This document shows, one piece after another, positions 10,493 through 28,453 of a DNA stretch of 33,221 nucleotides. A model generated the notes under the pieces. That model was not told where the DNA came from and did not search any database. It saw only the letters and a program-made list of their open reading frames with translations. How positions within the stretch are numbered: the first letter of the stretch is position 1; every line of letters starts with the position of its first letter. A program made the position numbers and the translations under genes. Origin of the DNA: a virus (lineage: Duplodnaviria > Heunggongvirae > Uroviricota > Caudoviricetes); the IMG/VR virus record IMGVR_UViG_2636415418_000001, positions 1 through 33,221 of that record; one strand, written 5' to 3'.

Positions 10493-10507
10493 ATAAACTC
10501 CGTACAT

Positions 10508-10529
10508 AAAAAATCCCACCGGAGTGGGA
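10508..10529 (-). terminator. intrinsic terminator/attenuator between tape measure and N-like genes
   Basis: Minus strand: TCCCAC-TCCG-GTGGGA followed by TTTTTT, in the 60-nt gap between the two genes. Confidence 0.5.
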
Positions 10530-10552
10530 CTCATTAACAGATTAATTTTTCA

Positions 10553-12388
10553 TTACCTGCCAAAGCGCGTATAGCCAACATCATGGCTGACATCAAAACC
10601 GCTGGATCGCGTTTCCATAACCCGCATACCCGGAGGCGAATTCACAAAAGAGACCTTGATCTCACCATCAACTTTTGGCGCAGAAGCTTTGTTAATCATG
10701 AAGGGATTCGGGCCTGTGGCATCGGAGGCGTTGTTTGACTGAGCCGGATCCACCGCCTGATAAGGTGTGTATCCCCGTGCCGGTATTCCCGTCCCATAAG
10801 CATCATAAGCACCCGCGCCCCACTGCGCAGAGTTAATGGCATCGACCGTGTCACCGGAACTGTCGGTAAACCACTCAATAATTGGCTTCAGCTTGTCCCA
10901 CATATCCTGAAACCACTTAACAACCGGTCCCCAGTTATTGATTACCATCCCCAGCGGCGACCAGGCAAAAACCTTCTTCAGAAGTTCCCAGCCAGCCTCA
11001 AAATAAGGACCAATGGTTTCCCAGAGCTTCTTGAAATAAGGTCCGACAACATCCCAGTTAGTGATAATTAATCCCGCAGCCAGGGCTATCGCCGTCGCAA
11101 TCATGCCAATCGGCGTCATCGACATGATCCTGCTGACAATACTGATGGCACCGCCAACGCCCATCAATCCCAGTTTCAGAATCGCAAGACCGGCAGCAAG
11201 CCCGACGACGCCGCGAATAACCCGGGGATTTTCATCCGCAAACTTCGTGAATTTTTCCCCTAACTCCCCCAGCCATTGCGTGATATTTTGGGCGTCACCA
11301 GAAAATGCGCCGCCAATAGCTGCAAGACCGTTAGTTGCGGTCCCCGTCATTGCCTCCCACAGGTTGGACAGCGTACCAAGCTGTGCCTGAACACGTTTAT
11401 TCAGGCTGGCCTGTTTATTCATCTTCTGCTGGATCTGATCGTAACCATCCTTTCCTTTATCGATCAGAGCATTGACCACCTGAAGGGTTTCGGCATCATC
11501 ACCAAATATTGCCTTAAGTACACCTGTTCGCTTAACGTCGGTCAGTTTTCGCAGCTTTGCCAGTTGCTTAAACATGTTATCAAGACCGCCAAAACTCCCT
11601 TTGCCATCAGTAAAATCGAGCTGCACTCCGAGTTTCTGGCGGGCCATGACTTTATTGACGTCCCTGATTTTCTTAACGCTTAATCCGGACTGGATAACTT
11701 TTCGCAGGGCATTACCTGCCGACTCCCCGTTCATCCCCATCTGATCCATCATGACGCTGATAGGGGCAAGGCTCTGTGCAGCCTGAAGTCCGTCCTTATT
11801 CACCATCTTCAGAACAGAACTGGTTTTAGTGAAGAAGGACAACATGTTGGTATCGTCAACGCCCAGATAAAACGCCTTCTGGATAGTGTCGAACAGCCCC
11901 ATCATGTCTTCTGACGCCGTTCCGGTAGCATCCTGCATCTTTGCAGCAAACTCAGCAGCCGCTTCCGGTGTTTTTTTCAGTTGTACCGCAAGATAAGCTG
12001 TCGCTTTACCCACACCACCAAGAATGTTTTCTGCCGGGATCCCCTGACGCACCAGCATCTGCATCATGTTCTGGAAATCAGCCGTTGTACCGGGTAGCTG
12101 GTTACCCAGGCCAATAGCCAGTTTATTGATGTCCTGAAAGCTCTTTCCAACCTCGCCGTTCGCATCCATCATGGCGACTTTCAGCCCGGTGGCGGCGTTT
12201 TCCTGATCGGCATAAGATTTCAGGGAAAGCGTCAGACCCGCTGCCAGTCCGCCACCAAGCGCCAGCCCACCCTGTGACGCTTCTTCCGCCTGGCGTTTAA
12301 ATCCCCGGATTTTCTTTTGCATTTTCGACAGCGCGGGAGAAAGCCTGTCGACACCGGTGATCAACGCCTTAAGCTCAAATTCAGCCAT
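10553..12388 (-). CDS. tail tape measure protein
   Basis: 611-aa ORF, Ala/Gly-rich helical N-terminus and hydrophobic segments, directly downstream of the frameshifted chaperone pair. Confidence 0.85.
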   Translation of the reverse strand: MAEFELKALITGVDRLSPALSKMQKKIRGFKRQAEEASQGGLALGGGLAAGLTLSLKSYADQENAATGLKVAMMDANGEVGKSFQDINKLAIGLGNQLPGTTADFQNMMQMLVRQGIPAENILGGVGKATAYLAVQLKKTPEAAAEFAAKMQDATGTASEDMMGLFDTIQKAFYLGVDDTNMLSFFTKTSSVLKMVNKDGLQAAQSLAPISVMMDQMGMNGESAGNALRKVIQSGLSVKKIRDVNKVMARQKLGVQLDFTDGKGSFGGLDNMFKQLAKLRKLTDVKRTGVLKAIFGDDAETLQVVNALIDKGKDGYDQIQQKMNKQASLNKRVQAQLGTLSNLWEAMTGTATNGLAAIGGAFSGDAQNITQWLGELGEKFTKFADENPRVIRGVVGLAAGLAILKLGLMGVGGAISIVSRIMSMTPIGMIATAIALAAGLIITNWDVVGPYFKKLWETIGPYFEAGWELLKKVFAWSPLGMVINNWGPVVKWFQDMWDKLKPIIEWFTDSSGDTVDAINSAQWGAGAYDAYGTGIPARGYTPYQAVDPAQSNNASDATGPNPFMINKASAPKVDGEIKVSFVNSPPGMRVMETRSSGFDVSHDVGYTRFGR

Positions 12389-12799
12389 GTGTGCGTTTCT
12401 CCTGCTCTATCCTGTTTGCCTGACTGACCAGCAAGGGAATTTCACTGATCGGCATATTCAGCAATTCGAAGGGATTAATGCGCCAGTAACTGGCGCAGTC
12501 AAAGAAGCGATCAGTGAGGTATTCAGCCGTCAGGCCTGGAGGAAAAAACCGGCCACAAGCCACGCCGCTGCATTCAGGTCTGCCGGAGACATCTGGTCGA
12601 CAGAGCTTTGCGGCACTTTCGCCAGCCGCACGATGTATTTCGATACCACATGCGCCAGAAGTCTGACGGACTCATCCTGATTCATCTGGTAGGGATATCC
12701 CAGCTCGCGGACATCTTTCCCGGTGGGCTCATCAAACTCCAGTACGGAGAGTGTCTCGCCATGAGCGGTAATCGGTTTCTTTAACTCAAGCTCTTTCAT
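12381..12799 (-). CDS. tail assembly chaperone, predicted -1 frameshift fusion product
   Basis: Slippery T TTT TTC (plus 12542-12548) lies 3 codons before the stop of the upstream ORF; the -1 frame continues as PPGLTAEY… for about 53 more codons. Confidence 0.5.
12530..12799 (-). CDS. tail assembly chaperone (short product)
   Basis: 89-aa ORF between the tube and tape measure genes, ending just after a slippery heptamer. Confidence 0.65.
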   Translation of the reverse strand: MKELELKKPITAHGETLSVLEFDEPTGKDVRELGYPYQMNQDESVRLLAHVVSKYIVRLAKVPQSSVDQMSPADLNAAAWLVAGFFLQA

Positions 12800-13155
12800 T
12801 ACTGGTAATCCCCTTCTTCACCGTGGAACTCAAGATCGACCGTGCCTTCTTCGGCATTATGGTTCGCTTCGCCGTGCAGCCAGGCAGACGACAGTACATA
12901 GACCTGACCGTTTGCCAGCTCGGCAGTGATGGTCATCTCATCAGACGAGGTGATTTTGCTCACCGGAAAATTCTTCGGCACCTTGAAGGTCCCTTTGACA
13001 TAAGGCGCACGGTGAGTTTCCTTGCGGTCCACTGAACCGTCCAGGCCGATGATGTCATCATTGACCGTCCTGTTCATGGGCACCTCAATGCCGCCGGTCA
13101 GCGATAGCTGCTGACCGTCAATTTTGAAATAACAGGTTCCCCCGATACGGGCCAT
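12799..13155 (-). CDS. tail tube protein (Mu M-like)
   Basis: 118-aa ORF immediately after the sheath gene. Confidence 0.7.
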   Translation of the reverse strand: MARIGGTCYFKIDGQQLSLTGGIEVPMNRTVNDDIIGLDGSVDRKETHRAPYVKGTFKVPKNFPVSKITSSDEMTITAELANGQVYVLSSAWLHGEANHNAEEGTVDLEFHGEEGDYQ

Positions 13156-14651
13156 TATGCAGACTCCTCTGAATACTGAAGACGGAACTGGTTAACCACG
13201 GCAAAGACACGCAACTGGTTAACATAGTCAGGCGGGAACAGCGTGTTCAGGCGGTTCGGATCGCTGGCATCACGCTCCACAACCAGGTACTGCTTAAACA
13301 GTTCGTAGTTTTCCACGATCCCCGCACGCTCAAGCTGACGGTAGGTTGCCAGCAGTTCCCCTTTGATCACCGCCGGGGTGACAATCGCCTGACCGGGACC
13401 AAAGCGGGTACCGTCACTGGCAAGCTTGTGACGCCCGTACTTACTGGTAATGACGGATTTCAGTTTGCGCAGTACATACGCGCTGGTATGCAGTGTCTCA
13501 CTGTCGAGGTAGCTGTTATCCGCAACCCCGTAAGCGTTTTTCCTGTACGTGGTGACATCACGCTGAATGCGCAGTACCCCGCTTTCGACATACGCCGTTG
13601 CCACGCCATGAGACAGCAGGGTCTGTTGTTCGGTCATCGTGAACCGTTTCCCCTTCGGCGCAGGCAGCATACCCACCAGCTCACCGGTCTGCGTGGGACG
13701 TGCCGGATCGTTGCGGATAAACACCGCTGCGCGGGCGGTACGGCTTGCCGCCAGCTCGTCGGCAGGCGTCTGGGTCTCTTTTTCGTATCCCGCCAGGGTA
13801 ATGTGCTGCTGGTTAAACTGGTCACCTGCGGTCACCAGTTCTGACAGCGTGCCGATCTTTGCCGTATACACATGACCATACAGCTGACGCGCATAGCTCC
13901 AGCGACCGCTGGTATCGTTCATCTCGGTCACCAGCGTGTTAACGGAGGCTGTGTCGTTGAACGGCAGGCCGATATAATCAAACGGCTCATCCGCCATTGC
14001 AGCCACCGCGCCGGTGAGAACAGGAGCGCCCGTTCCGGCGGTACCCGTCGCCACGGCAATCTGTACGCCCGCTGGCAGCACTTCGCCCCCACCAAAGCCG
14101 TAGTAATTGAGGCTGACAGGAATTTCATTCCCGCAAAGCCCCTTATGACGCGCGGTCAGTGTGACCACGCCTGCCGAAGATGAGGCAGTAAACGGCAGGG
14201 TCGGAACGGCATTGATGGCATCTTTGATACTGCTGGCAATCGTCGCGACGTTATCGCCGTTGGTCACCGGTGCCTGCACGCGGGTACGTCCCACATAAAC
14301 ATTCACCGTGCCGGTTTCGGTTGCCGCGCCGGTCACCGTCAGCGTAACTGTTGCCGCCGCGCCCGTGGATTCAGGAACGGCAATCACATACAGTTCACCA
14401 AACGGGTCGGTCTGGCGATAAGCCTCGACCATACGCGCCAGCTGACTTCCCGCACCACAAATCTGGCGTGCATAGTCTGCCGATGGCATCAGCACCAGAC
14501 TGTTGGCAACAATCTCTGCACCGTTATTGGCATGACCAATCAGCAGCGATGCTCCGCTGTCCTGTGCAGTATTCGCCGCCGAGTTATCCATTTCCGCATA
14601 AAAAATCGGAACCAGCGTATTCGACGGAATGGTGTTAAAGCTTATCGTCAT
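13155..14651 (-). CDS. contractile tail sheath protein (Mu L-like)
   Basis: 498-aa ORF; size and position fit a myovirus sheath upstream of the tube gene. Confidence 0.85.
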   Translation of the reverse strand: MTISFNTIPSNTLVPIFYAEMDNSAANTAQDSGASLLIGHANNGAEIVANSLVLMPSADYARQICGAGSQLARMVEAYRQTDPFGELYVIAVPESTGAAATVTLTVTGAATETGTVNVYVGRTRVQAPVTNGDNVATIASSIKDAINAVPTLPFTASSSAGVVTLTARHKGLCGNEIPVSLNYYGFGGGEVLPAGVQIAVATGTAGTGAPVLTGAVAAMADEPFDYIGLPFNDTASVNTLVTEMNDTSGRWSYARQLYGHVYTAKIGTLSELVTAGDQFNQQHITLAGYEKETQTPADELAASRTARAAVFIRNDPARPTQTGELVGMLPAPKGKRFTMTEQQTLLSHGVATAYVESGVLRIQRDVTTYRKNAYGVADNSYLDSETLHTSAYVLRKLKSVITSKYGRHKLASDGTRFGPGQAIVTPAVIKGELLATYRQLERAGIVENYELFKQYLVVERDASDPNRLNTLFPPDYVNQLRVFAVVNQFRLQYSEESA

Positions 14652-14805
14652 CGGTATTCACCTTTTTATTCACGCGCCGGATATCACCCGCTGCTTCACG
14701 GCGCAGCCAGTAGTTGTTCTCATCAACATTTCGCCCCTCGGCGGGCAAAAGGTCGCCGCGGGCAGGGTCAGGAACTGACCGCCCTTTAACAGGTTTCACA
14801 AACAT
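14635..14805 (-). CDS. small hypothetical protein (56 aa) upstream of the sheath gene
   Basis: Unlisted ORF that I translated by hand; overlaps both neighbours; could be spurious. Confidence 0.25.
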   Translation of the reverse strand: MFVKPVKGRSVPDPARGDLLPAEGRNVDENNYWLRREAAGDIRRVNKKVNTDDDKL

Positions 14806-14813
14806 GAAGATTC

Positions 14814-15374
14814 TCAGGAAGGAAGGGTTATTTCGGTGTGATGTTCGATATCGCCGTCAGGCCCGTTACCGGGATCGAGATAATCAACATCAATCGCCAG
14901 CGTTCGCAGTTCATCCAGACTGTTCAGGTCATCCTGCTGGCGGGTATCGTCTTCGGTCAGCTCGCTGATGACCGAAAAATCGAACTGATAAATCAGCTCA
15001 TGACGATTCAGATCCAGCAGCGTGCCGCCGTCATAAGTAATCGGGTTACCGCACGCTTCCGGGTTCCAGCCCAGAATGGCCTTAAAGAGCATCTGCCGGA
15101 CATCGTCCACCACATCATACGAGGCAAACTGACCGCGCTCATCACGCCCGTTACTCAGTATGACAACCACGGAGAAACCCTCTTTCAGCTCCTGCCAGTA
15201 GTCGGTCTGGCTTTTGTTTTCTCCCGGAGAGTCATCACCCGGTACCACATACGCCGCCGGGAGTCTCAGCTTTCCGACCTCCGGCAGATTTTTGAACTGT
15301 GCCGCGCCTGCCACCCGGTTTTCAAAATACGGGCAGCGGGCACGCAGCGCAGCAATAACAGGCGTCAGTTTCAT
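14814..15374 (-). CDS. tail completion/terminator-like protein (Gp37-like)
   Basis: 186-aa ORF between head-completion genes and the sheath gene. Confidence 0.5.
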   Translation of the reverse strand: MKLTPVIAALRARCPYFENRVAGAAQFKNLPEVGKLRLPAAYVVPGDDSPGENKSQTDYWQELKEGFSVVVILSNGRDERGQFASYDVVDDVRQMLFKAILGWNPEACGNPITYDGGTLLDLNRHELIYQFDFSVISELTEDDTRQQDDLNSLDELRTLAIDVDYLDPGNGPDGDIEHHTEITLPS

Positions 15375-15889
15375 CTGCGTCGTCGCTCCGGCTTCAGTGA
15401 TTTACGTAATTCCCGCGCCAGAAAATAGCGTGTCCAGCTGCGGTTCTTTTCAAGCGTTTCCACCATGAAGTTATTACGTGGAGCCAGTCGCCAGCCGCTG
15501 CCACCGGATGCACCACGATGATGGCTGCGACGACGCTTTGCCCCTCGCCTCACGCCATAGAACAAAAAAGCCGGATAAAAATCACCGGTGATACGGCGGT
15601 TTCCCTCTCCATTACGCTGGTTAGGGGCTATACGTGCCATAAAACCAGGGCGATGTTTACTGGCTCTGGGTACCATATACCCAATCGAACGTGCCAGGCG
15701 TCCGGTCTGATAACCGGGGTTTTCACCCGGTGCCGACCGCGCACGGCGCATCACCAGCCGACGGGCATCACGCATATGACGCTGACCAATCGTGACAAAC
15801 GCCCGCCGGACACGGGCGCGGTTAAAGCGCATCTCCGCGGGCTGCTGAAAATCAACGTGCAAAAAGGAAGTCGTCATTGTTGCCTCCAT
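15371..15889 (-). CDS. HK97 gp10-like virion morphogenesis protein
   Basis: 172-aa basic protein in the head-tail joining cluster. Confidence 0.45.
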   Translation of the reverse strand: MEATMTTSFLHVDFQQPAEMRFNRARVRRAFVTIGQRHMRDARRLVMRRARSAPGENPGYQTGRLARSIGYMVPRASKHRPGFMARIAPNQRNGEGNRRITGDFYPAFLFYGVRRGAKRRRSHHRGASGGSGWRLAPRNNFMVETLEKNRSWTRYFLARELRKSLKPERRRR

Positions 15890-16262
15890 GACTCTGCCTA
15901 TATTCGCCCAGCTCCGTACACTCCAGCAGCAGAAAGCGCCGCGCCCCGTTCAGATCGCGCTGACGTTTCACCCGGTACACACTGTCATCACAGACCACCT
16001 CATAATCAGCAGTGATCCCCCGGCGGTAGCGAATGGTGATGTAATGGGTGATGGCGTCCCCGGTCTGCGCGGTTTCCTGCCAGGTGGTGGCACTGGTCTG
16101 GATAACCTTCGCCCATGTCCGGAACGTAACCGGGTATTGAGACTCCACACCAAAGTTATCCGCGGGCATATCCACCCGCTGGCGGATCAGGACGCGTTTA
16201 TTCAGTTCACCGGGGTCCGGCAGAATGTAGGTTGCGCTGGTCTGCGCCTGACGAATTTTCAT
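15852..16262 (-). CDS. head-tail adaptor / head closure protein
   Basis: Position after the connector gene; the true start may be an internal ATG. Confidence 0.5.
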   Translation of the reverse strand: MKIRQAQTSATYILPDPGELNKRVLIRQRVDMPADNFGVESQYPVTFRTWAKVIQTSATTWQETAQTGDAITHYITIRYRRGITADYEVVCDDSVYRVKRQRDLNGARRFLLLECTELGEYRQSHGGNNDDFLFAR

Positions 16263-16582
16263 TGCGGAAAGTACCTGTACGGGCCGACAAGCCAGCCAAA
16301 ACTCTGCGGCATGTCGAGTTTCTCCACTTCCGTAACCGACGAGCGGTTTTCGTAAAAATGGCTGATAAGCATCAGCATCCCCAGGCGAATATCATCCGGC
16401 AGGTGCAGCCCGTCTGGATCGCTGTCCGGAATGGTTTCATCCGGTGCATAGAGCTTCCGGTTCAGATACGTTTCCGTCCGCTTTTGCGCCGCACAGGCCA
16501 GCAGTTGCAGATGGCGGTCATCAGCATCGAAATCCTCATCCAGCCGGAGTTGGGCTTTAATCTCTTCCATTGTCAGAAGCAT
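16259..16582 (-). CDS. gp6-like head-tail connector protein
   Basis: 107-aa ORF in the usual position downstream of the capsid gene. Confidence 0.6.
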   Translation of the reverse strand: MLLTMEEIKAQLRLDEDFDADDRHLQLLACAAQKRTETYLNRKLYAPDETIPDSDPDGLHLPDDIRLGMLMLISHFYENRSSVTEVEKLDMPQSFGWLVGPYRYFPQ

Positions 16583-16584
16583 AC

Positions 16585-16785
16585 TCAGCCCTCTTTACTG
16601 GTCGTGGCTTTTTTCTCTTTTGCCGCTTTACTGCTTTTTGCACTGATTCCGCGCTCTGCTAACCCGGCCTGAAGTGCAATCTCCTGCACCCGGGCAGGAA
16701 GCGCCCCGTCGTCATACTCACCGGCCCGAATGACCTCAACACGCATACCGTCCGGTGACCATTTCAGATCTTGTTTCAGGATCAT
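16585..16785 (-). CDS. small hypothetical head-module protein
   Basis: 66-aa ORF between capsid and connector genes with a weak RBS. Confidence 0.35.
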   Translation of the reverse strand: MILKQDLKWSPDGMRVEVIRAGEYDDGALPARVQEIALQAGLAERGISAKSSKAAKEKKATTSKEG

Positions 16786-16806
16786 GATTCTTCACCCGTC
16801 AGAACA

Positions 16807-16827
16807 GGGGGCGCGGTTCCGCGCCCC
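16807..16827 (-). terminator. GC-rich stem-loop just after the major capsid gene
   Basis: Perfect 9-bp inverted repeat GGGGCGCGG-TT-CCGCGCCCC about 8 nt past the capsid stop; no U-run follows. Confidence 0.4.
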
Positions 16828-16834
16828 TGAGTGA

Positions 16835-18040
16835 TTACGCCGCTGCAATCTTCAGCAGTTTGATGGCCTGCGAATCGACCAGCATCCCGCCGGTGCGCTT
16901 GGTGGTATAAAAACCGACAAACGGTTTATTGGTGTACGGGTCACGCAGAATGCGGGTGCCGATACGGTCAACGATGGTGTAACCCCGTTTGAAGTTACCA
17001 AATGCAATGGCTTTCGCATCAGCGGCGATATCCGGCATCTGTTCGTTTTCAGCGATACCGTAACCCGCCAGAGAGGACGGCTGCCCCAGCTCCAGCCCCG
17101 GACGCCACAGATAGTTACCCTCGCTGTCTTTCAGCAGACGGATGGCAAACAGGCTATTGTTGTTCATCATGAACTTCGCGCCGGTGCGGTGTGCCTTACG
17201 CAGCGTGTAAATCAGTTTGATAATGGCGTCTGCGGTCACCGCCGTCGCGTCGCCGGATACAATATGCTGAAGTTTGCCGAACGCCCGGACCTTATCGGTT
17301 TCATCCGTGGATTCATACGCCAGGAACCCTTTCGGCTTCTTGGTACCATCGCCGGTGGTAAAGGCAATTTCTTCCTGTTCAGCAAATTCGGTCGCCAGCT
17401 CGCTGTTGATCCAGGCCTCCACGTTGAAGAAGGCATCATCCAGCATTTTCTGAGTGGCCTGCGGGTTACCGTAGATTTCCCCCATGAAAGGTTCAATCAG
17501 GCCCAGTTTTGAGGTGGCAGTCTGGGAGCGCGCGTCAGTCTCGCCAACCCATCCGGAAGCCGTGCCGCCCAGATTCACCAGTTTTTTGTAGTCGGAACCA
17601 CCAACGGTGATCACCGTGGCTTCCTGACGCATCACCACTTCATCTTTCAGCAAGGTCAGAATGTTGCGATCCAGCGCTTCCGGCACGGCATAGCCACCGT
17701 CTTCATCGGTGCCCACCTGTAATGCCTTGCGCTCCAGATCGCGCAGACCATCTTCACGGCCTTTACGCAGGAAGCCCACAAACGCTTCTTTATGCTCGGT
17801 GGCCAGTTTATTTTGCGCACCACCTGCCGGACGTTTCAGCTCAAGCAGCTCTTTTTCAAGGTCGCTTTTGAGGTTTTCCAGCTCGCTGAGTTTTCCGTTC
17901 AGGGTTTCCACCTGCCCGGCAAGTTTGCCTTTTTCCTGCTCAATCGCCTCAACGCGCTTGTCGTTCTTTGCTTTGAAGTCGTCAAACTTCTGCTGCAGCT
18001 CCTGCGCGACCTGTTCGACATCTTTAATATCAACTGCCAT
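16835..18040 (-). CDS. major capsid protein (HK97 fold)
   Basis: 401-aa ORF following the prohead protease; coiled-coil N-terminal delta-like region. Confidence 0.9.
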   Translation of the reverse strand: MAVDIKDVEQVAQELQQKFDDFKAKNDKRVEAIEQEKGKLAGQVETLNGKLSELENLKSDLEKELLELKRPAGGAQNKLATEHKEAFVGFLRKGREDGLRDLERKALQVGTDEDGGYAVPEALDRNILTLLKDEVVMRQEATVITVGGSDYKKLVNLGGTASGWVGETDARSQTATSKLGLIEPFMGEIYGNPQATQKMLDDAFFNVEAWINSELATEFAEQEEIAFTTGDGTKKPKGFLAYESTDETDKVRAFGKLQHIVSGDATAVTADAIIKLIYTLRKAHRTGAKFMMNNNSLFAIRLLKDSEGNYLWRPGLELGQPSSLAGYGIAENEQMPDIAADAKAIAFGNFKRGYTIVDRIGTRILRDPYTNKPFVGFYTTKRTGGMLVDSQAIKLLKIAAA

Positions 18041-18054
18041 CGTATTTCTCCTGA

Positions 18055-18741
18055 TTAGAAGTTCAGATTTTTCAGTGCATTCAGTGCAGAGCCCACATCC
18101 TCAGCGTCGCGCAGGGACAGTGCGCCATAGCCCCCGGCCATGAATGCTTTGGCCTGGGTACGGGAGAGTCCGACATCACGCAGGACTCTTTCGATTTTTT
18201 TCTGTTCGGGGATTTCCCCGCGGGCCAGTGCGTTCTTGACGTCGCTGATCCGCGCCTCGTCGTTAGACGGGAATGTCACCAGACTGACTTCCCAGAGGTC
18301 GATTTCTTTCAGCAGAAAGGCTTCTTTCGTCCGGTCGTATTCCCAGTCCTTCAGGACGTACCCAATAGAAAGGCCGGTTAACGAACCGGCCTTCATGTGT
18401 GCATGTGCGCGTTTTGCGAGGGGATCATCATCAATAAGCAACCGTCCCCTGACGTAAAGCCCGACATCGTCTTCCTTCATTTCGGTGTAAACACCGATGG
18501 GTTCATCCATGCGGTGCTGCCAGAGCAGCGCAGGTAACGCTTTTCTGTCACTCCACGCCCGCAGGGAAGCAGCAAATGCCCCGGACATCACCACATCATC
18601 GTGGCTGTCCTTTACACCAAAGACGGAGCCATACCCTTCAAACTCACCGGAGTCACTGACAGATTTCAGACTCAGCGGTACATCAAGACGTTGTTTCGTC
18701 TGCATTGGCGTTATCCTTCTGCTTACCGGCTTTACTGCCAT
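18055..18741 (-). CDS. prohead protease (HK97 family)
   Basis: Position between portal and capsid; true start probably the internal MQTKQ. Confidence 0.75.
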   Translation of the reverse strand: MAVKPVSRRITPMQTKQRLDVPLSLKSVSDSGEFEGYGSVFGVKDSHDDVVMSGAFAASLRAWSDRKALPALLWQHRMDEPIGVYTEMKEDDVGLYVRGRLLIDDDPLAKRAHAHMKAGSLTGLSIGYVLKDWEYDRTKEAFLLKEIDLWEVSLVTFPSNDEARISDVKNALARGEIPEQKKIERVLRDVGLSRTQAKAFMAGGYGALSLRDAEDVGSALNALKNLNF

Positions 18742-19924
18742 CGGAGGGTTTCGTGGTCATGTTCATCGGTGTGAGATAGACATCCCCACCGGGACGCGGA
18801 TTCATATCTTCCAGGTCGCGGCAGTCATTGGGAGAGTAAATTCCCCAGTTAATCCCGGTGGCGTAGGCTTCAAAACGGGACTTCATATCCCCGCGCAGTA
18901 ACGCCCCGGCGTTAAATTTGGCGTAATAAACGCCCTGCTTACTTTTTCGTACCAGTCCGGTGTTGATCCGCTGCTCAATGCGGGTCAGATACGGCACCAG
19001 TGAATAGTTGATAAATCCGAGCCCCAGCTCTTCGATATTGTTGAAGGTGGCGCGATCGGTGTTCTGCACCATGTGCAATGGCACACGGAACAGACGACAA
19101 ATTTCTTCAAGCTGAAACTTGCGGGTTTCCAGGAACTGGCTGTCCTCTGCGTTCAACGCCATCGACTTCCAGTCCAGCCCCATCTCAAGGATCATCGGGC
19201 GGTGAGCATTGCCAAGCCCGGTGTGACGCTCCTCAAAATCTTTCTTCAGGCGCTCATAAGCCTGATCCGACAGCGTCTGCTCTGTACGCAAAACACCCGA
19301 CGTCACCGCGCCATTGCTGAACAGTCTGGCCCCGTGCTCTTCGGTCGCTGCCGCCAGCGATATTGCCTCGCGGGCATAGGCGATGGGATTCAGCCCCACC
19401 AGTCCGTCCAGCGTCAGCGTACGCACATGCCAGATATCCTCCTGGCTCAGTACATCCGTGGAGCCATCCGGGAATGTGACCTGATAGACCGGCTCCCAGC
19501 TACTGTTAAGCTTCGGTACCACACAGCCGGGATCGACGGGCAGCAGTTCAGCCACTTCGCCAAATGCTTTCACTTTGTAGGCGTAAAAGTTTCCCCGCAG
19601 GCACAGACAGGTGACCACCAGCTCCCAGAACTCCTGCGGCGTCATATAGCCATTGGGATGCGTGGAGATCAGCTTATGCAGACGTTCGCCAGTGGCTCTC
19701 TGCTTCAGGCTGCCGTTCAGGTGATACAGGTTGCAGGGCAACATCCCGACCGACTCCGCCAGCACCCTGACACAGGAAAAAACCGCCGTCAGTCGCATGG
19801 CCCGCTGGCTGCTGATCTGCTTTCCGGTATAGGTGTCGTAGGACAACCCGATAGCATCCGCCAGCTCTGCTGGCGTGGTCACCGGTGCGTCACTTTTTCG
19901 TTGAAATAATCCCGAAAAGAACAC
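18683..19924 (-). CDS. portal protein (HK97 family)
   Basis: 413-aa ORF downstream of the large terminase. Confidence 0.85.
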   Translation of the reverse strand: MFFSGLFQRKSDAPVTTPAELADAIGLSYDTYTGKQISSQRAMRLTAVFSCVRVLAESVGMLPCNLYHLNGSLKQRATGERLHKLISTHPNGYMTPQEFWELVVTCLCLRGNFYAYKVKAFGEVAELLPVDPGCVVPKLNSSWEPVYQVTFPDGSTDVLSQEDIWHVRTLTLDGLVGLNPIAYAREAISLAAATEEHGARLFSNGAVTSGVLRTEQTLSDQAYERLKKDFEERHTGLGNAHRPMILEMGLDWKSMALNAEDSQFLETRKFQLEEICRLFRVPLHMVQNTDRATFNNIEELGLGFINYSLVPYLTRIEQRINTGLVRKSKQGVYYAKFNAGALLRGDMKSRFEAYATGINWGIYSPNDCRDLEDMNPRPGGDVYLTPMNMTTKPSDGSKAGKQKDNANADETTS

Positions 19925-20106
19925 TATTTACCTCCGCCGACAGACGACTGTGTACGGTCGAGATATCGCGCCACCAGCCACGACCAGAACAGGCACAACG
20001 CCCCGGCAACAACAAACCCCGCCGGGGGATAAATCAGCCAGGCACCATACGCCAGCAAAAGCACCCCCAGCACGCCCACCAGAGGCGCGAGAATCAGCAT
20101 GATCAT
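19924..20106 (-). CDS. small membrane protein (two predicted TM helices)
   Basis: 60-aa hydrophobic ORF filling the terL-portal gap. Confidence 0.4.
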
Positions 20107-20117
20107 AATTACCTCAG

Positions 20118-21851
20118 TTAAAGCGAGCGGATCCCGTAGGACTCAATGTGGTCGGACAGCGTGTCTTCTTTCTCATACAGCATGGCTCTGCCAACCGCCA
20201 TAATCAGCGCAACTGCACCATCGATTTTGTTTTCCGCCTGCTCTTTGACGGGCTTCACCACATCATCGTTACCCGGAATGGTTTTGCCGACCACGTTGCC
20301 GATACACCAGGTCATGATGGGATTGCCATCATGATGAAAGCGCCCCGATTCAATTGCCGCTTCCAGCTCTTTCATCGGGTCGGACATGTTGGTGTAGTTC
20401 TGAATGATGGTGATGGGATTCAGGTCTTCATCAGCAAGGTCATGTGACAGCCCGGTCGCCCCGAAGGGGTCGATGGGTGACTCGCTGACCGGGCTGATTT
20501 TGTTCGCCGCTTTGGCCTCTTCGAGGATGTAGCGATAATCCACCTCTGCACCATCGGTAACGGTCAGGACGCCCATTTCCACCCATTTCTGAAAGCGTTC
20601 GGCTGTCCGGCGATCTTCATTTTTCTCGACGCTGTACACCGTGTCATACGGTACCCAGAAACGCGGGGCCACACTGTAGTAATGCGTTTTACCGTCAATC
20701 TCGCGGGTATAAAGTCGCGCCATGCTGTTCATATCCAGCTTACGGGCCAGGTCAAAGGCCAGAATGCACGGCTGCCCCTCGAACTGCTCAAGGGTCAGTG
20801 ATTTATCCTCGCAGCTCTGCCAGCTCACCAGGTTGAAATACGCCGAACGCGCCGACACCCAGATATTGAGGTGTTTTGTTTTAAAGACGTTTGCCAGACG
20901 GGCGTTATTTTTCGCACGCTGCTGCTGACTTAACAAAAATTCGCGATAAACCGACACGCCAATATTCGGGTTAGCTTTTTCCAGCACCTGCGGGTCGGTC
21001 CAGTCATCGCCTTCGTCAACGGTATAGATGATCCCGAACAGTTCATCGTTGGGTACCGACCCGTTGAGCATCTCGATAACTTCCCGTCGCTTGTCGTAGC
21101 ACGGCCCCTCAATGTTGTACCCGGCAGTAGTAATGGCCCACATCAGTGGCTGACGTCGCGCCCCCATCCCGGTAAGCATCGTGGTGTAAAGCGCATCGGT
21201 GGCGTGCTCGTGATATTCATCCACCACCGCACAGTGGGGTGATGAACCATCACCGGGGTTACCGATCAGCGGTTCAAACCGCGCGCCATCCTCCGGACGA
21301 TTCATGTTTGAGGCGTTAACCTCAATCCCGAACGCTTCCGTCAGCATGGGTGTGCGTTTACACATCAGTCGCGCCGGGCGAAAGACTTCCCACGCCTGTT
21401 TCTCTGTCGTGGCACCGGAATACACTTCCGCGCCAAACTCGTTATCACAGGCAAAACAATACAGGGCAACACCGGCAGAGATTGCCGATTTGCCGTTCTT
21501 ACGGGGGATTTCGGTATACACCTCCCGGAAGCGGCGCAGCCGGGACCCTTTATTGACCCAGCCAAACGCACAGCAGACCACAAATAGCTGCCACGGCTCC
21601 AGCGTGATGGGCATCCTCTTGAATGCCCACTCACCCTTGGTGTGCGGCAACAGCTGAATAAATTTGGCGGCCCGTTCAGCCAGGTCCTTGTCGAAGCGGT
21701 AACGAAACGACTTACTTTTTTCCGCCATCAGGTCATCAAGATGGCGCTGGCAGGCCTGAATCACAAACTGGCAGGCCACAATCTTTCCGCGCACAACATC
21801 ACGGGCATACTGATTGGCAGCATTTACGTTGGGGTAAGATTTCCGGCTCAT
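20118..21851 (-). CDS. terminase large subunit
   Basis: 577-aa ORF; ATPase and nuclease-like regions, overlapping terS by 4 nt. Confidence 0.9.
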
Positions 21852-22342
21852 GACTCGATGATTTTCAGAAACGGGTTAGTGGCTTTCTTCTGCCCCGCCA
21901 GGCCAATCAGACGCTGGCGGCTGCTGGGGTCGAGTCCGAGCATTGCCCCCGTGCTGCTCATCTCGGACTCCTGTTCTTTTTTGGCGGTCAGCTCCGGATT
22001 TTTGACCCTGCCGCCCATTGCACCGGTGATGGTGTTGCCCTGTATGGCAATATTTTTCACGGCACGTCGCCAGAACTCATAGGCCACGCACCACCGCTCA
22101 AGTACCGCCAGGTCAGTCACGCACAGCAGGCCCTGACCGCAGAGTTCTTTGGTTGTCAGTTGCCACATGATCGTGGCGAGAGGGAGATCTTCTTCAGCGA
22201 ACCACTCTGGTGGCTCAACACCTTTGATGGGCGTAAAAACAGGTTCATCTTTGTTCAGGGCTCGCTTGCCGGGGTTTCCGGCCAGCGCCTTGCGCGCCGT
22301 TGGCTTGGGGCGACGCCCGGAACGCCCCGCCGTTCCAGCCAT
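21848..22342 (-). CDS. terminase small subunit (P27-like)
   Basis: ATG at 22342 has an AGGAG RBS; the track ORF begins 3 codons earlier at a GTG. Confidence 0.75.
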
Positions 22343-22467
22343 ATGCGGCACTCCTGGTTAAATTTCATTTTTCGCGGGTATAAAAAAACGATGGGGCGGG
22401 CAGTCCGGAAGACGTCAGGTCACAGGGATTTGACCCGCCCCTCCCCTCTGGCAGTGGGAACTGGTTC

Positions 22468-22875
22468 TTACTTCAACCGTTCACGGGCCGTCTTCGCCTT
22501 ATGACACGGCCAGCACAGACTCTGCAGATTACTGTCGGCATCAGTGCCGCCATGTGCTTTAGGGATGATGTGGTCAACGGTTTTCGCCTCGCGCACCACA
22601 CCGGCACGCAAACACAACTGACACAGGCCTTTGTCACGCTTGAGCACACGTTCACGGATAACATCCCATTTCGCACCATAACCGCGCTGGTGTCGGGACT
22701 GGCCTGGCTTGTATTGCTTCCAGCCTTCGCTTTTGTGGCTTTCGCAGTAGCCTGACGGGTCTGTGGTGGTATTACGGCAACCTCGAGCACGGCAGGCTTT
22801 CGGGATACGAGGAGGCACTTTATTACCTTGATTATTTATAGGGTTAAAATAAGTATATTCGCAAAAAACATTCAT
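22468..22875 (-). CDS. HNH endonuclease (terminase-associated)
   Basis: Cys-rich HNH motifs; a GTG with an AAGG RBS is an alternative shorter start. Confidence 0.8.
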   Translation of the reverse strand: MNVFCEYTYFNPINNQGNKVPPRIPKACRARGCRNTTTDPSGYCESHKSEGWKQYKPGQSRHQRGYGAKWDVIRERVLKRDKGLCQLCLRAGVVREAKTVDHIIPKAHGGTDADSNLQSLCWPCHKAKTARERLK

Positions 22876-22894
22876 TGATTATGAGAATCAAAAA

Positions 22895-23758
22895 TCAGGA
22901 AATAATACCCTCCGATTTTCCTTTGCTTATGTAAACTAATTTATCATTACCTAATGATAACACTTGTTGAAATTGTGGCTTTATTTTTATGCATCCTCCC
23001 AAAAAATAAGCAAAACTACTTACCCCTCCAATAACATTATAAGGATAATCTACTGACATAGATAAAACAGTTCCCGCCAGACTAAATATTTGTGAAAAAT
23101 CGAACTCAAAGGAAGTAGAGATGCTAAATTTTATTGGACTTTTCCACACTTCACAATTTAAGCGTTCAATATCCTTTATTGCTTGTTTAAGATTAGAAAG
23201 AGCTTTTGCTTTCTGAAGATTGATATCACCAGAACGTTTTATATCCAAGTAAAGCTCATCAAGATATTCATGTAAAGCGATTAATTCAGGTTTTCTTCTT
23301 TCCTTGAAATCAAGAATATCATGTAGGTGCACATCTTCTGTGGGAACGGGTAATAAATTTGCTAGTTCAAAACGTATCACTTCTGAGGTTCTAGATAATT
23401 CAGGCACCAAGTTTATTTGGTCACTTAAAAAATGCATGCGCCAATCGACAGAAGAATCCGCATGCCTAAGTATATCTATTGTTTTGGCATGAGTTTCAGC
23501 ATAAAAATCAGCCATATATTGGCCATCAAAACAACCATGATGTCTATATACAGGTCTGGTTAGCAATCCACATTTTTCTAATTCATCCTCGTTATTTAAT
23601 GCTGTATGTATAATATTATTAGTGGGTGAAACTAGTTTATCCCAATAAAGACATAGATAGTTTATTTCTAATTGACTAATCCATTTACCTGTACGGATGC
23701 CTTTTCCATCCTCGGTTTTAAGTAATTCGCATGCACTAAATACCACACCTCTTTCCAT
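22895..23758 (-). CDS. hypothetical protein, AT-rich cargo (no family recognised)
   Basis: 287-aa ORF with a strong RBS (AGGAGA 7 nt upstream); markedly AT-rich compared with flanking lysis and packaging genes. Confidence 0.6.
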   Translation of the reverse strand: MERGVVFSACELLKTEDGKGIRTGKWISQLEINYLCLYWDKLVSPTNNIIHTALNNEDELEKCGLLTRPVYRHHGCFDGQYMADFYAETHAKTIDILRHADSSVDWRMHFLSDQINLVPELSRTSEVIRFELANLLPVPTEDVHLHDILDFKERRKPELIALHEYLDELYLDIKRSGDINLQKAKALSNLKQAIKDIERLNCEVWKSPIKFSISTSFEFDFSQIFSLAGTVLSMSVDYPYNVIGGVSSFAYFLGGCIKIKPQFQQVLSLGNDKLVYISKGKSEGIIS

Positions 23759-23830
23759 GTCCGTCTCCTGTGATTAAGCTAATAGTAATTTAGCATTATC
23801 TTATACGAACGTGGAGTGTCATCTATAGAT

Positions 23831-24292
23831 TCATTTCTGGCACTGTGTCTTGATGTACTCCTGCAAATAGTTAACCTGTGCAGTTATCTTGTCGATCCCA
23901 CTTCGGAGGCGGTAATAATTGAGTTCAGCATCAGCTGTAAGTCTTGGACTTTCTCCATAGCCCATGCCGCTGGCTCCGGTCGTTGACTTTGCACAGGTGG
24001 CGGCGATTTGCAAGCGCTTACGACCAGCAGAGACATCAGTACGGAGACTTTCGAGAGTCGTGTTAGCATCAGCAAGCTCCTTTGTGTATCTGGCGTCAAG
24101 TTCAGCTACGTCACGTTGACGCTTCTGCATATCAGAGATCGTCGCCATAGCCGAATGTAATGCCATAGCGTTTTCGTCGCGCTGCTTTTTGTATTCAATG
24201 GCTTGATTGTGGTAATGATTCGCTGACCAGATGAAAGAACCAATAATAGTAACGAAGAAAGCAGCGATAACTAGCTTATAGCTCAACTTCAT
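23831..24292 (-). CDS. Rz: i-spanin Rz
   Basis: Close match to lambda Rz; N-terminal TM helix and coiled-coil periplasmic domain. Confidence 0.85.
   Translation of the reverse strand: MKLSYKLVIAAFFVTIIGSFIWSANHYHNQAIEYKKQRDENAMALHSAMATISDMQKRQRDVAELDARYTKELADANTTLESLRTDVSAGRKRLQIAATCAKSTTGASGMGYGESPRLTADAELNYYRLRSGIDKITAQVNYLQEYIKTQCQK
23884..24069 (-). CDS. Rz1: o-spanin Rz1 (lipoprotein), embedded in Rz in the +1 frame
   Basis: Start MLTRLSKVS with AAGGAG RBS; lipobox VVSAC; Pro-rich mature region. Confidence 0.7.
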   Translation of the reverse strand: MLTRLSKVSVLMSLLVVSACKSPPPVQSQRPEPAAWAMEKVQDLQLMLNSIITASEVGSTR

Positions 24293-25056: not shown

Positions 25057-25159
25057 TGTTTCGCCGCCGACAAAAGGCCGGGACGTTAAATGTCAGAAAT
25101 CAGGCTCACGGGGTAATTTAACGACAAAGCACGGAGTTGATGCTCCCCGCAAGCCTGGA

Positions 25160-25184
25160 ATAAAAAAGCCAGCATGTAGCTGGC
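25160..25184 (-). terminator. tR'-like intrinsic terminator of the short late leader
   Basis: Minus strand: GCCAGC-TACAT-GCTGGC followed by TTTTTTATT, about 185 nt downstream of the pR' candidate. Confidence 0.5.
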
Positions 25185-25353
25185 AACAGAGGGTTAAGCA
25201 ATATCAACTCAACAGCTGAAGACACCCTGGCTGGGGTACGTTGGAAGGATACTCACCGCCCAGAAACAGAAAAGCCCAAGGCTTTAAACCTCGAGCTTGA
25301 ATTTGGATTACTGCCAGTGCGTACAACATTGGCAAAATATCAGTTTTATATGA

Positions 25354-25382
25354 AATATATGCTTTTTAATCCAGTTTTGCAA
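25354..25382 (-). promoter_or_regulatory. pR'-like late promoter
   Basis: Minus strand: TTGCAA-N17-TATATT spanning the Q stop codon; the qut site would be expected just downstream. Confidence 0.45.
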
Positions 25383-27640: not shown

Positions 27641-28453
27641 TTAGAATTTCATGTTAAAGCCGCTAAAATCTGTTTTTTTCTTGTATGGTATGGTCGTGTA
27701 CTGATCTGTTGATGTTTTACTCATAACATGTGCGAGAATAAGTTCATCTCCTGAATCCAGCCAAAACTCCACAGTCAAATGAATTTTTGGTTTAAGACCA
27801 TGCATTAATGCAACCATTTGTGCGCTAAACACTTCACCCGTGCTTAGTTTATAGTCTGAACGGAAACCTTGGATAAAACCACTTTCACCTAATACATTAT
27901 ATCTTAATTCATTATCCTTTAATTTATTAGTAAATAAGAACAAAAAGTCAGCGGTAACCTCGCTAAAATGATCAGCGGAAACCCTAACTATTACTTTATT
28001 GGATTCTGTTTTAAAGTCATATGAAAGATTGGAGAATAATTCATCCTGAGGTTTATAAGTGCTTTTACCAGAGATAATATCATTCATTTGTGCTATCACT
28101 ACATCTATACCATTTGTATAAAGGTCCAAATACACTTTTTGAGTAAGAAGTGCAGGCATAGGTGATTCATCACAACGTATAGCAATGAATTTAACATCTC
28201 CAGTGGCGGCTTTCATAAGTGCATTCTGCCATTCTAAAGACACCATATCACTCTTAAGGCTATTTTTTGTAACAAAGAAAAAGAAAATTTTAACGGATTC
28301 GATTCCATCATTCATTCGTTCAATAATCCCTTCACCAGGCTGAATTGACCACGAATCATAAAATACGTTATCCCTGCCATATATATCTGCAATTTTATCT
28401 GCAATATACCCAACGAAAGCTTTGTCTTTATAATTATGACTAATAAAAATCAT
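27641..28453 (-). CDS. TIR-domain protein with uncharacterised ~140-aa C-terminal domain
   Basis: N-terminus MIFISHNYKDKAFVGY…WSIQPGE…SLEWQNAL fits the bacterial TIR fold; strongly AT-rich gene with its own RBS. Confidence 0.7.
   Translation of the reverse strand: MIFISHNYKDKAFVGYIADKIADIYGRDNVFYDSWSIQPGEGIIERMNDGIESVKIFFFFVTKNSLKSDMVSLEWQNALMKAATGDVKFIAIRCDESPMPALLTQKVYLDLYTNGIDVVIAQMNDIISGKSTYKPQDELFSNLSYDFKTESNKVIVRVSADHFSEVTADFLFLFTNKLKDNELRYNVLGESGFIQGFRSDYKLSTGEVFSAQMVALMHGLKPKIHLTVEFWLDSGDELILAHVMSKTSTDQYTTIPYKKKTDFSGFNMKF

What the first reader, a model, noticed from the sequence alone, without database searches (positions are those of the whole stretch)
22895..23758. Orphan AT-rich 287-aa gene between the lysis cassette and the packaging genes
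A strongly AT-rich gene with a good RBS sits between Rz/Rz1 and the HNH-terS-terL block, a recurrent moron site (bor in lambda, stx or porin genes near the lysis cassette in other lambdoid phages). I recognise no motif in it. Its composition and position suggest horizontally acquired cargo, possibly defence or lysogenic conversion.
Basis: partly seen in the sequence, partly recalled or inferred. Interest (0 to 1): 0.55.

Follow-up and report, generated by a model that had tools for sequence, protein, structure and literature searches.

The report
Uncharacterised DUF6236 cargo gene in prophage
A real, foreign-looking gene of unknown function sits in a swap-prone slot of an E. coli prophage. It belongs to a large, never-studied protein family (DUF6236) and is a reasonable but unproven candidate for a new one-gene anti-phage or lysogen-benefit function.

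Summary
Window 22895-23758 (minus strand) is an intact 287-aa ORF with an AGGAG ribosome-binding site. Its GC is 33.7% (GC3 22%) against about 47-59% in its neighbours. It lies between Rz/Rz1 and HNH-terS-terL of an SfI/SfII/SfV-like E. coli prophage.

It is not an orphan. It matches Pfam DUF6236 and PHROG 23128, both of unknown function. The family has about 1,700 clusters at 50% identity across many phyla, mostly about 270-340 aa, with no fused domains among the 150 best hits.

It is accessory cargo: 32 of 5,426 complete E. coli genomes carry it. It is absent from the near-identical Sf phages, and relatives hold other genes, or almost nothing, in the same 1-kb slot. In every enterobacterial context sampled, homologs down to about 30% identity occupy the same lysis-to-packaging slot and keep an extended -10-like element upstream. 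Elsewhere the gene stands alone with no conserved partner.

Confident AlphaFold models match no solved structure. No known defence, lysis or packaging family matches, and the HEPN motif test failed.

Most likely it is a moron with its own promoter. I favour a single-protein phage-exclusion role (about 0.4), but this is inferred, not shown.

The parts
22895..23758 (-). DUF6236-family protein gene, 287 aa. Predicted layout: N-terminal alpha/beta domain (about 1-140), long helical hairpin (about 145-204), and a C-terminal beta / Gly-Ala-Ser-rich, low-charge segment (about 209-287).
   Evidence: ORF. Pfam PF19749 E 2.9e-31. PHROG 23128 E 4.8e-144. dN/dS 0.05-0.26. AlphaFold2 pLDDT 84.7, pTM 0.83.
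23765..23769 (-). Shine-Dalgarno AGGAG, 6 nt upstream of the ATG
   Evidence: Read directly from the sequence. A purine-rich GGAG/GAGG is present at the same place in the homolog loci.
23787..23822 (-). Promoter-like region inside the variable cassette. It contains an extended -10-like TGCTAAATT (23795-23787) overlapping a GATAAT hexamer (23800-23795) with ATGACA 16 nt upstream (23822-23817).
   Evidence: Consensus scan gave 10 of 12 matches. TGnTAnnnT sits at the same distance from the start codon in 7 of 7 enterobacterial homolog loci whose intergenic DNA otherwise does not align. Function is inferred, not shown.
22819..23830 (-). Variable 1.0-kb cassette: the gene plus about 70 bp on each side, bounded by the Rz stop codon and the HNH start codon
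   Evidence: BLAST similarity to other E. coli prophages stops at about window 22824 and resumes at about 23829. An alignment with 'empty' and alternative junctions shows homology resuming at the HNH start, GTG 22818. There are no flanking direct or inverted repeats.
23831..24292 (-). Rz spanin gene (Rz1-like ORF embedded at 23884-24099): the upstream, conserved flank of the slot
   Evidence: ORFs. Annotated 'lysis protein' in identical RefSeq prophages.
22468..22818 (-). HNH endonuclease gene next to cos and terS: the downstream, conserved flank of the slot
   Evidence: Annotated HNH in RefSeq relatives. The start is set by homology. In SfI and SfII the HNH gene is the last gene of the linear genome record.

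Best explanation
The feature is a moron: a horizontally acquired, self-contained 1-kb cassette of promoter-like element, RBS and one gene. It sits in the variable slot between the lysis cassette and the HNH/terminase genes of an SfI/SfV-like temperate myovirus integrated in E. coli. That part is shown, and I hold it at about 0.85. The product is a cytoplasmic 287-aa DUF6236-family protein that works without a dedicated partner. My preferred function, which is inferred, is a single-protein phage-exclusion (abortive-infection or superinfection-exclusion type) factor expressed from its own promoter in the lysogen. In this model the well-folded N-terminal alpha/beta domain and helical hairpin act as sensor and oligomerisation module. 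The conserved Gly/Ala/Ser-rich, charge-poor C-terminal segment is the likely effector or conformational-switch element, possibly membrane-active. No step of this mechanism has been demonstrated.
For: Cargo status:
- Present in 32 of 5,426 genomes, always in this slot.
- Other occupants, or none, in relatives.
- GC 0.337 against about 0.47-0.59 in the neighbours. Enterobacterial homologs are also AT-rich, 0.36-0.41, whatever the host.

Autonomy:
- A conserved extended -10-like element lies 30-40 nt upstream in 7 of 7 enterobacterial loci.
- A terminator-like hairpin follows the Klebsiella copy.

Single-gene module:
- No neighbour family recurs across 36 loci from many phyla.
- No fused domains among the 150 best family representatives.

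Not tied to the phage's own lytic cycle:
- Stand-alone chromosomal copies exist in Pseudoalteromonas, Psychrobacter and many other lineages.
- Among 50,697 phage records only 4 hits were found. Three are from temperate phages or prophage-derived elements and the fourth, Kp4865-1, is unannotated.

A benefit shared by gut, marine, soil and vent bacteria argues against an animal-host virulence role.

Defence context:
- The same prophage carries a GmrSD restriction gene and a TIR-domain gene in other AT-rich slots.
- A type IIG R-M gene lies directly upstream in Comamonas L046, and SIR2-HerA lies upstream in Flavobacteriaceae L044.
- Validated prophage-borne defence systems typically show little defence-island association (PMC9519451).

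Protein features:
- Purifying selection.
- Conserved D40, K152, D178 and aromatic residues.
- C-terminal window with G/A/S 33% against 18% elsewhere, charged residues 13% against 26%, and an uncharged run of about 21 residues.
Against: - No homology to any PADLOC defence or candidate model, for the query or for 144 family members.
- Among 145 neighbours at 33 non-enterobacterial chromosomal loci, only about 4-5 loci have a recognisable defence gene within three genes. That is roughly what chance would give.
- Other occupants of this slot are not known defence genes.
- Three Psychrobacter species keep the gene in conserved chromosomal synteny, which looks more like a stable cellular function.
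- The C-terminal hydrophobic segment is only borderline (Kyte-Doolittle 19-residue maximum 1.25 in the E. coli protein). AlphaFold packs part of it as a beta-strand, so membrane activity is speculative.
- No enzymatic or toxin motif was found.
- In the window no terminator-like site was found by the scan between the gene and HNH, so it is probably also transcribed with the late operon.
- The promoter is a sequence inference only.
Confidence: 0.4

Rival explanations
1. It is a lysogenic-conversion or host-physiology factor unrelated to phage defence (for example stress tolerance, envelope or metabolic modulation). It would be expressed from its own promoter in the lysogen and be useful to many kinds of bacteria.
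For: Same cargo and promoter evidence. Most chromosomal neighbours are ordinary housekeeping or stress genes: GNAT acetyltransferases, redoxins, glyoxalase, photolyase, NnrS. Synteny is conserved across three Psychrobacter species. There is no clear excess of defence neighbours.
Against: No recognisable enzymatic, transport, regulatory or secretion motif. No signal peptide or lipobox in the sequence. The neighbouring genes differ from locus to locus, so no pathway link emerges. The strong, repeated association with temperate-phage accessory slots, next to defence cargo in the same prophage, fits inter-phage conflict better.
Confidence: 0.2
2. It is a non-essential accessory function of the phage's own late programme (for example lysis timing, exclusion of superinfecting phage during lytic growth, or help with cos cleavage or packaging). 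It would be transcribed with the late operon.
For: Positional conservation is striking. In every enterobacterial prophage context sampled the gene is co-oriented with, and lies directly between, the spanin gene and the packaging genes. This holds across at least four terminase types and down to about 30% identity. In the viral contigs, 23 upstream ORFs match endolysin families, and terminase or HNH genes are the commonest downstream. In the window no terminator-like site was found by the scan between the gene and HNH.
Against: Absent from SfI, SfII, SfIV and SfV and from most E. coli relatives with the same lysis and packaging genes. No hits in virulent phages. Other phage copies lie next to the integrase or at the prophage end. 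Many copies are chromosomal with no phage genes nearby. A conserved promoter-like element of its own exists. No similarity to holin, antiholin, spanin or terminase-accessory families.
Confidence: 0.15
3. It is a counter-defence gene, for example a binder or sponge for a host immune signal or protein, carried as variable phage cargo.
Against: The fold matches are not significant. Stand-alone chromosomal copies, two of them immediately downstream of R-M or SIR2-HerA systems in cellular genomes, are hard to explain for an anti-defence gene. Its position at the end of the late region, with a promoter-like element of its own, is atypical for early-acting anti-defence genes. At 287 aa it is large for known sponges.
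Confidence: 0.1
4. It is a selfish toxin or addiction-type element, or cargo with no current function.
For: AT-rich, mobile and patchily distributed. IS insertions lie next to or in the gene in 2 of 32 E. coli genomes.
Against: No conserved adjacent antitoxin-like gene. Purifying selection and conserved length across hundreds of lineages. Thirty-one of 32 E. coli copies are full-length at 99.5% identity or more.
Confidence: 0.07

Closest known systems
Pfam DUF6236 (PF19749) / PHROG 23128 (both 'unknown function')
   Same: It is a member by sequence: 109.3 bits against a 26.2-bit gathering score, and a full-length match to PHROG 23128 at E 4.8e-144. All 144 aligned relatives also hit DUF6236.
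   Different: Only positions 74-266 of the 324-position Pfam model are matched, so this is a shorter, divergent subfamily, mostly about 270-340 aa. Membership says nothing about function, because none is known.
Classical morons of lambdoid phages (lambda bor downstream of Rz; HK97/HK022-type morons)
   Same: An extra gene in a late-region slot that is present in only some otherwise near-identical phages. It has atypical base composition and a promoter-like element of its own, with a terminator in the Klebsiella copy.
   Different: No sequence relation to Bor or other named morons. It is co-oriented with the late operon, and the scan found no terminator-like site after it in this window. Expression in the lysogen is untested.
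Single-protein prophage-encoded exclusion/abortive-infection factors (e.g. HepS of Gifsy-1, PMC13043305; BstA, PMC8585504; Tab, PMC10884400)
   Same: One prophage-borne gene with no partner, carried as variable cargo, with homologs both in prophages and in chromosomes. This is the working model I propose.
Glycine-rich or 2TM membrane effectors of defence systems, and class II bacteriocin-like peptides
   Same: The C-terminal about 50 residues are G/A/S-rich, charge-poor and the most hydrophobic part of the protein in 53 of the 54 aligned members of A1. A few members give weak hits to Bacteriocin_IIc, DUF1269, SLATT_6 and CBASS 2TM effectors.
   Different: All those hits are individually insignificant and non-recurrent. 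Hydrophobicity is borderline for a membrane helix, and AlphaFold models part of the segment as a beta-strand of the globular body.

Membership tests
Pfam DUF6236 (PF19749) | Score above the curated gathering threshold of the family HMM | tested here: met
   109.3 bits against 26.2, E 2.9e-31, residues 24-227 on model positions 74-266 of 324. All 144 aligned relatives hit the model.
PHROG 23128 | Full-length match to the family profile | tested here: met
   E 4.8e-144, residues 1-285 on profile positions 1-288 of 288.
Moron (accessory gene unit in a temperate phage) | Present in some but absent from other closely related phage genomes at the same site | tested here: met
   32 of 5,426 E. coli genomes. 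Absent from SfI, SfII, SfIV and SfV. Alternative or no occupants in relatives.
Moron (accessory gene unit in a temperate phage) | Base composition unlike the surrounding phage genes | tested here: met
   GC 0.337 and GC3 0.222 against 0.47-0.59 and 0.42-0.68 in the neighbours.
Moron (accessory gene unit in a temperate phage) | Own promoter and terminator flanking the gene | tested here: inconclusive
   A promoter-like element is present and conserved in 7 of 7 enterobacterial loci. No terminator-like site was found after the gene in this window; one is present after the Klebsiella copy. This is sequence inference only.
Moron (accessory gene unit in a temperate phage) | Transcribed from the repressed prophage | not testable with these tools
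   Needs RNA-seq or 5'-RACE of an uninduced lysogen.
Known or candidate anti-phage defence systems (PADLOC-DB 2.0) | Match to a defence-protein HMM | tested here: not met
   0 hits at E<=1 for the protein. Only scattered single hits among 144 family members.
Defence-island gene ('guilt by association') | Clear excess of known defence genes among neighbours | tested here: inconclusive
   Type IIG R-M at -1 in L046, SIR2-HerA at -3/-2 in L044, one Shedu hit and one methyltransferase hit among 145 neighbours of 33 loci. The rest are housekeeping genes. That is about the chance level. Prophage-borne systems are known to score low on this test (PMC9519451).
HEPN-domain RNases (e.g. HepS, Tha, AbiD-like) | Conserved R-x(4-6)-H catalytic motif in an all-helical domain | tested here: not met
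Lysis or packaging accessory proteins (holin/antiholin/spanin/terminase-associated) | Sequence similarity to a known lysis or packaging family, and restriction to phages | tested here: not met
   No Pfam, NCBIfam or PHROG functional match. Many non-phage chromosomal copies.
Integral-membrane superinfection-exclusion proteins | Signal peptide or clear transmembrane helices | tested here: inconclusive
   No N-terminal hydrophobic segment. A single borderline C-terminal segment has a Kyte-Doolittle 19-residue maximum of 1.25 (0.8-2.1 across the family). No dedicated TM predictor was available.
CARF/Rossmann-like nucleotide sensor domains | Significant structural match of the N-terminal domain | tested here: inconclusive

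The most novel reading that the evidence does not exclude
DUF6236 is the founding member of a new, widespread single-protein anti-phage immunity family with an architecture not represented among solved structures. It would be spread mainly by temperate phages through the lysis-to-packaging slot, and would kill or arrest infected cells through its conserved Gly-rich C-terminal segment.
Probability: 0.3. Interest if true: 0.7.

Novelty: new member of a known kind. Interest (0 to 1): 0.42.

Why it matters
If the gene proves to be a defence or exclusion factor, it would add a compact one-gene immune module. The family has about 1,700 clusters at 50% identity across many bacterial phyla, and no solved structure resembles the predicted architecture. 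It would also establish the lysis-to-terminase junction of lambdoid and Sf-like prophages as a searchable hotspot for further cargo, as the P2/P4 hotspots have become. Even without that, it gives DUF6236 its first contextual description: a stand-alone gene, mobile on temperate phages, with a promoter-like element of its own. The candidate is ready to test, with defined boundaries, conserved residues and an explicit experiment.

Tried and rejected
- **NCBIfam and PADLOC scans.** Nothing for the protein. A PADLOC scan of 144 relatives gave only noise-level single hits.
- **PDB profile search.** Only a chance 14-3-3 helix match, E 0.3 or worse.
- **HEPN idea** (from the conserved ERR..EL..LH stretch). 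Rejected, because His163 is Arg in 37% of sequences and the spacing is wrong.
- **Conserved partner gene.** Rejected by clustering neighbours from 36 loci.
- **Transposon-like insertion.** No flanking repeats.
- **Known RNA or tRNA in the window.** None.
- **Literature.** Searches for DUF6236, PF19749 and WP_021556491 returned no paper. HepS and TerI, both prophage-defence proteins, are unrelated proteins.
- **'Guilt by location' at the Rz-HNH slot.** The other occupants are mostly unnamed hypotheticals, so it is uninformative.
- **The search for related loci with the broad alignment.** Failed for lack of a conserved stretch; the narrower alignment worked.

Full report
**1. The observation**

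Window 22895-23758 holds, on the minus strand, an ATG-initiated ORF of 287 codons. An AGGAG lies 6 nt upstream of the start (sequence).
- Its GC content is 0.337 and GC3 is 0.222.
- Its neighbours have GC 0.47 (Rz), 0.48 (endolysin), 0.57 (HNH), 0.59 (terS) and 0.55 (terL). The window as a whole is 0.507.
- In gene orientation the upstream genes are holin, endolysin and Rz with an embedded Rz1-like ORF. The downstream genes are HNH, a P27-type terS, terL and portal.

The description is therefore accurate. It is a genuine gene. Against homologs of 48-68% amino-acid identity, dN/dS is 0.05-0.26. Hundreds of relatives of the same length exist.

**2. Host element**

The structural and packaging module (window 8000-22400) is about 97-98% identical to the Shigella serotype-converting myoviruses SfI, SfII, SfIV and SfV. 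Identical prophages are integrated in E. coli chromosomes. The window also carries a lambda-like immunity, replication and nin region: an S24 repressor, O and P proteins, NinB-like, YbcO and Q. In SfI and SfII the HNH gene is the last gene of the linear genome record and terS is at the other end. The gene of interest therefore lies near the right end of the virion DNA.

**3. Not an orphan in databases**

The protein matches Pfam DUF6236 (109 bits against a 26.2-bit cut-off) and PHROG 23128 over its full length. Both are 'unknown function'. RefSeq calls it 'DUF6236 family protein'.
- NCBIfam and PADLOC give nothing.
- No paper in the library mentions DUF6236, PF19749 or the RefSeq accession.

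A profile search of 1.84 billion cluster representatives finds 1,710 clusters at E<=1e-3. Most of the 150 best hits are about 270-340 aa and match end to end (a few are shorter fragments), and none of them carries a fused domain. Genomic hits span:
- Gamma-, Beta-, Alpha-, Delta- and Epsilonproteobacteria;
- Bacteroidota, Firmicutes, Nitrospirota, Verrucomicrobiota and Cyanobacteria.

**4. Accessory cargo in a variable slot**

Only 32 of 5,426 complete E. coli genomes carry the gene, always between Rz and HNH. Thirty-one copies are full-length at 99.5% identity or more, and one is truncated by IS5. The flanks occur in thousands of genomes.

BLAST similarity to other prophages stops at about 22824 and resumes at about 23829. 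Alignment shows homology resuming exactly at the HNH start, GTG 22818. The exchangeable unit is therefore about 1.0 kb: the gene plus about 70 bp on each side. It has no flanking repeats.

The same slot holds other things in relatives:

| Relative | Slot content |
|---|---|
| APEC O78 | KilA-N gene |
| GE3, UTI89 | small hypotheticals |
| Br_178 | almost nothing |
| one E. coli genome | DUF6979 gene |
| SfI | 124-aa hypothetical |
| SfII | terminator, IS911 and a 206-aa hypothetical |

**5. The family in phages**

Within Enterobacteriaceae every context I sampled places the homolog in the same position. It is co-oriented with the late genes, directly after the spanin gene and before the packaging genes. 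This holds although protein identity falls to about 30% and the packaging modules differ.

| Host | Identity to the window protein | Packaging module |
|---|---|---|
| Klebsiella | 47% | Terminase_4 + HNH |
| Enterobacter | 28-33% | E217/XM1-like head |
| Citrobacter | 68% | DUF1441 + GpA |
| Cronobacter | 52% | Terminase_4 + TerL |
| Salmonella | 48% | Nu1 + GpA |

Sixty IMG/VR loci carry relatives; I analysed neighbours in 52 of them.
- Upstream ORFs are dominated by endolysins (23 hits across three families), holins and Rz.
- Downstream ORFs are dominated by terminase subunits and HNH.

Other phage copies occupy other classical accessory positions: between integrase and tail fibre in Klebsiella phage Mulock, and at the prophage end in a Vibrio prophage. 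Among 50,697 phage records there are only four hits. Three are from temperate phages or prophage-derived elements and the fourth, Kp4865-1, is unannotated. None is an Sf phage.

**6. The family outside phages**

In Pseudoalteromonas, Psychrobacter and most other non-enterobacterial genomes the gene stands alone among unrelated chromosomal genes.
- Clustering the four ORFs on each side of 36 loci found no recurring neighbour apart from sister-genome synteny. The protein therefore needs no dedicated partner.
- Known defence genes are adjacent in a few loci: type IIG R-M immediately upstream in a Comamonas MAG, SIR2-HerA upstream in a Flavobacteriaceae MAG, and one Shedu hit.
- Four to five loci of 33 is about what chance would give, so this neither supports nor refutes a defence role.
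- Vassallo et al. (PMC9519451) showed that experimentally validated prophage-borne systems score low on defence-island association.

**7. Expression signals**

Inside the cassette, just after the Rz stop, a consensus scan finds ATGACA-16-GATAAT (10 of 12 matches).

More tellingly, an extended -10-like TGnTAnnnT (TGCTAAATT at 23795-23787) sits 30-40 nt before the start codon in all seven distinct enterobacterial upstream sequences (E. coli, Klebsiella, two Citrobacter lineages, Cronobacter, Salmonella, Enterobacter). Their intergenic DNA otherwise does not align.

A good terminator-like hairpin follows the Klebsiella copy. The scan found none after the gene in this window. I infer that the gene carries its own promoter and is also read through by late transcription. 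Neither has been shown.

**8. The protein**

With a 144-sequence alignment AlphaFold2 gives pLDDT 84.7 and pTM 0.83. Mean pLDDT is above 90 for each ten-residue block through about residue 110 and stays at 81 or above through residue 220. The predicted layout is:
- an N-terminal alpha/beta domain (about 1-140);
- a long helical hairpin (about 145-204);
- a C-terminal beta element interrupted by a low-confidence stretch (about 229-255).

Nearly invariant residues are G4, L37, Y38, W39, D40, P45, W106, P137, P139, F151, K152, Y170, D178 and Y276. The ERR..EL..LH stretch is not a HEPN motif: the spacing is 7, and His163 is Arg in 53 of 144 sequences.

The C-terminal window is G/A/S-rich (33% against 18%) and charge-poor (13% against 26%). 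It contains the most hydrophobic 19-residue segment of the protein in 53 of the 54 aligned members (all but P0083). Hydrophobicity is only borderline for a membrane helix. Weak, non-recurrent hits to glycine-rich membrane peptides are suggestive at most.

**9. Interpretation**

Shown:
- a real, selected, AT-rich, stand-alone gene of the DUF6236 family;
- carried as exchangeable cargo in the lysis-to-packaging slot of temperate phages;
- also present as a solitary chromosomal gene in many phyla.

Inferred: it has its own promoter and is expressed in lysogens.

Three points argue that it serves the lysogen rather than the lytic cycle, and that the benefit is one shared by very different bacteria:
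- the known hits are in temperate phages or prophage-derived elements, with none found in a virulent phage;
- it is independent of phage genes in chromosomal copies;
- it spans a wide ecological range.

Protection against other phages is the most economical such benefit. It also fits the company the gene keeps in this prophage: a GmrSD restriction gene at 1166-3115 and a TIR-domain gene at 27641-28453, both in AT-rich slots.

I therefore favour a single-protein exclusion or abortive-infection role at about 0.4. The N-terminal domain and hairpin would act as sensor and oligomeriser, and the Gly-rich C-terminus as the effector or switch. The rivals are:
- a non-phage lysogen-benefit function (0.2);
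- a non-essential late-cycle accessory function, suggested by the striking positional conservation (0.15);
- counter-defence (0.1);
- a selfish or functionless element (0.07).

**10. Novelty and score**

The kind of thing, a moron in a known variable slot, is familiar, and the family is already catalogued as a DUF. New here is the contextual characterisation and the case for testing it. Interest is moderate (0.42). It would rise substantially if a phage-resistance phenotype were found.

Noticed in passing
window 27641-28453 (-): A second strongly AT-rich gene (GC 0.336, 270 aa) has an N-terminal TIR domain (PF13676, E 8.5e-20) and weak PADLOC hits (TIR-NLR 2e-7, ThsB 0.03). Its C-terminal about 150 residues are unassigned. 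It sits between a NinB-like gene and replication gene P, and is probably a stand-alone TIR defence or NADase cargo gene.
   Followed up: partly
window 1166-3115 (+): A 649-aa GmrSD-family (GmrSD_N + GmrSD_C) type IV restriction-like gene, GC 0.415. It lies beside the tail-fibre and tail-fibre-assembly genes (3366-4183), another accessory slot of the same prophage.
   Followed up: partly
window 25057-25365; locus L001 22981-24312: The Q-holin gap holds several terminator-like hairpins on the minus strand (25298-25272, 25184-25168, 25151-25130). This is probably the pR'/tR' late-promoter region. In an otherwise near-identical E. coli prophage the same gap carries a 443-aa KAP-family NTPase gene on the opposite strand, so this is a second variable cargo slot.
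   Followed up: no
window 22818-22875: The longest HNH ORF starts at ATG 22875 (135 aa). Homology with SfI, GE3 and Br_178 prophages begins at GTG 22818 (116 aa, as RefSeq annotates). The true intergenic gap after the DUF6236 gene is therefore 76 bp, not 19 bp.
   Followed up: yes
window 23787-23800; L004, L008, L018, L055, L058, L060 (about 30-40 nt upstream of each homolog): A short motif (consensus RATGMTAAATT, readable as an extended -10, TGnTAnnnT) is conserved at a fixed distance upstream of DUF6236 genes in six enterobacterial genera. The surrounding intergenic DNA is not alignable.
   Followed up: partly
E. coli ECE313 (NZ_CP196255.1) and PEC41 (NZ_CM168023.1), hits H5/H22/H126: IS elements are inserted at this locus in 2 of the 32 carrier genomes. 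An IS3-family element lies next to the gene, and an IS5 element leaves only the first 80% of the gene matched. SfII also has IS911 in the same slot.
   Followed up: no
L031, L032, L036 (Psychrobacter spp.): Three Psychrobacter species keep the DUF6236 gene in the same chromosomal neighbourhood (photolyase / DUF3429 upstream, NnrS / Rrf2 downstream). In that genus it behaves as a stably inherited chromosomal gene rather than mobile cargo.
   Followed up: partly
L044 34-4205 and L046 5026-8992: In a Flavobacteriaceae MAG a SIR2-HerA defence pair lies just upstream of the DUF6236 gene on the same strand. In a Comamonas MAG a type IIG restriction-methyltransferase gene ends 35 bp before it.
   Followed up: partly
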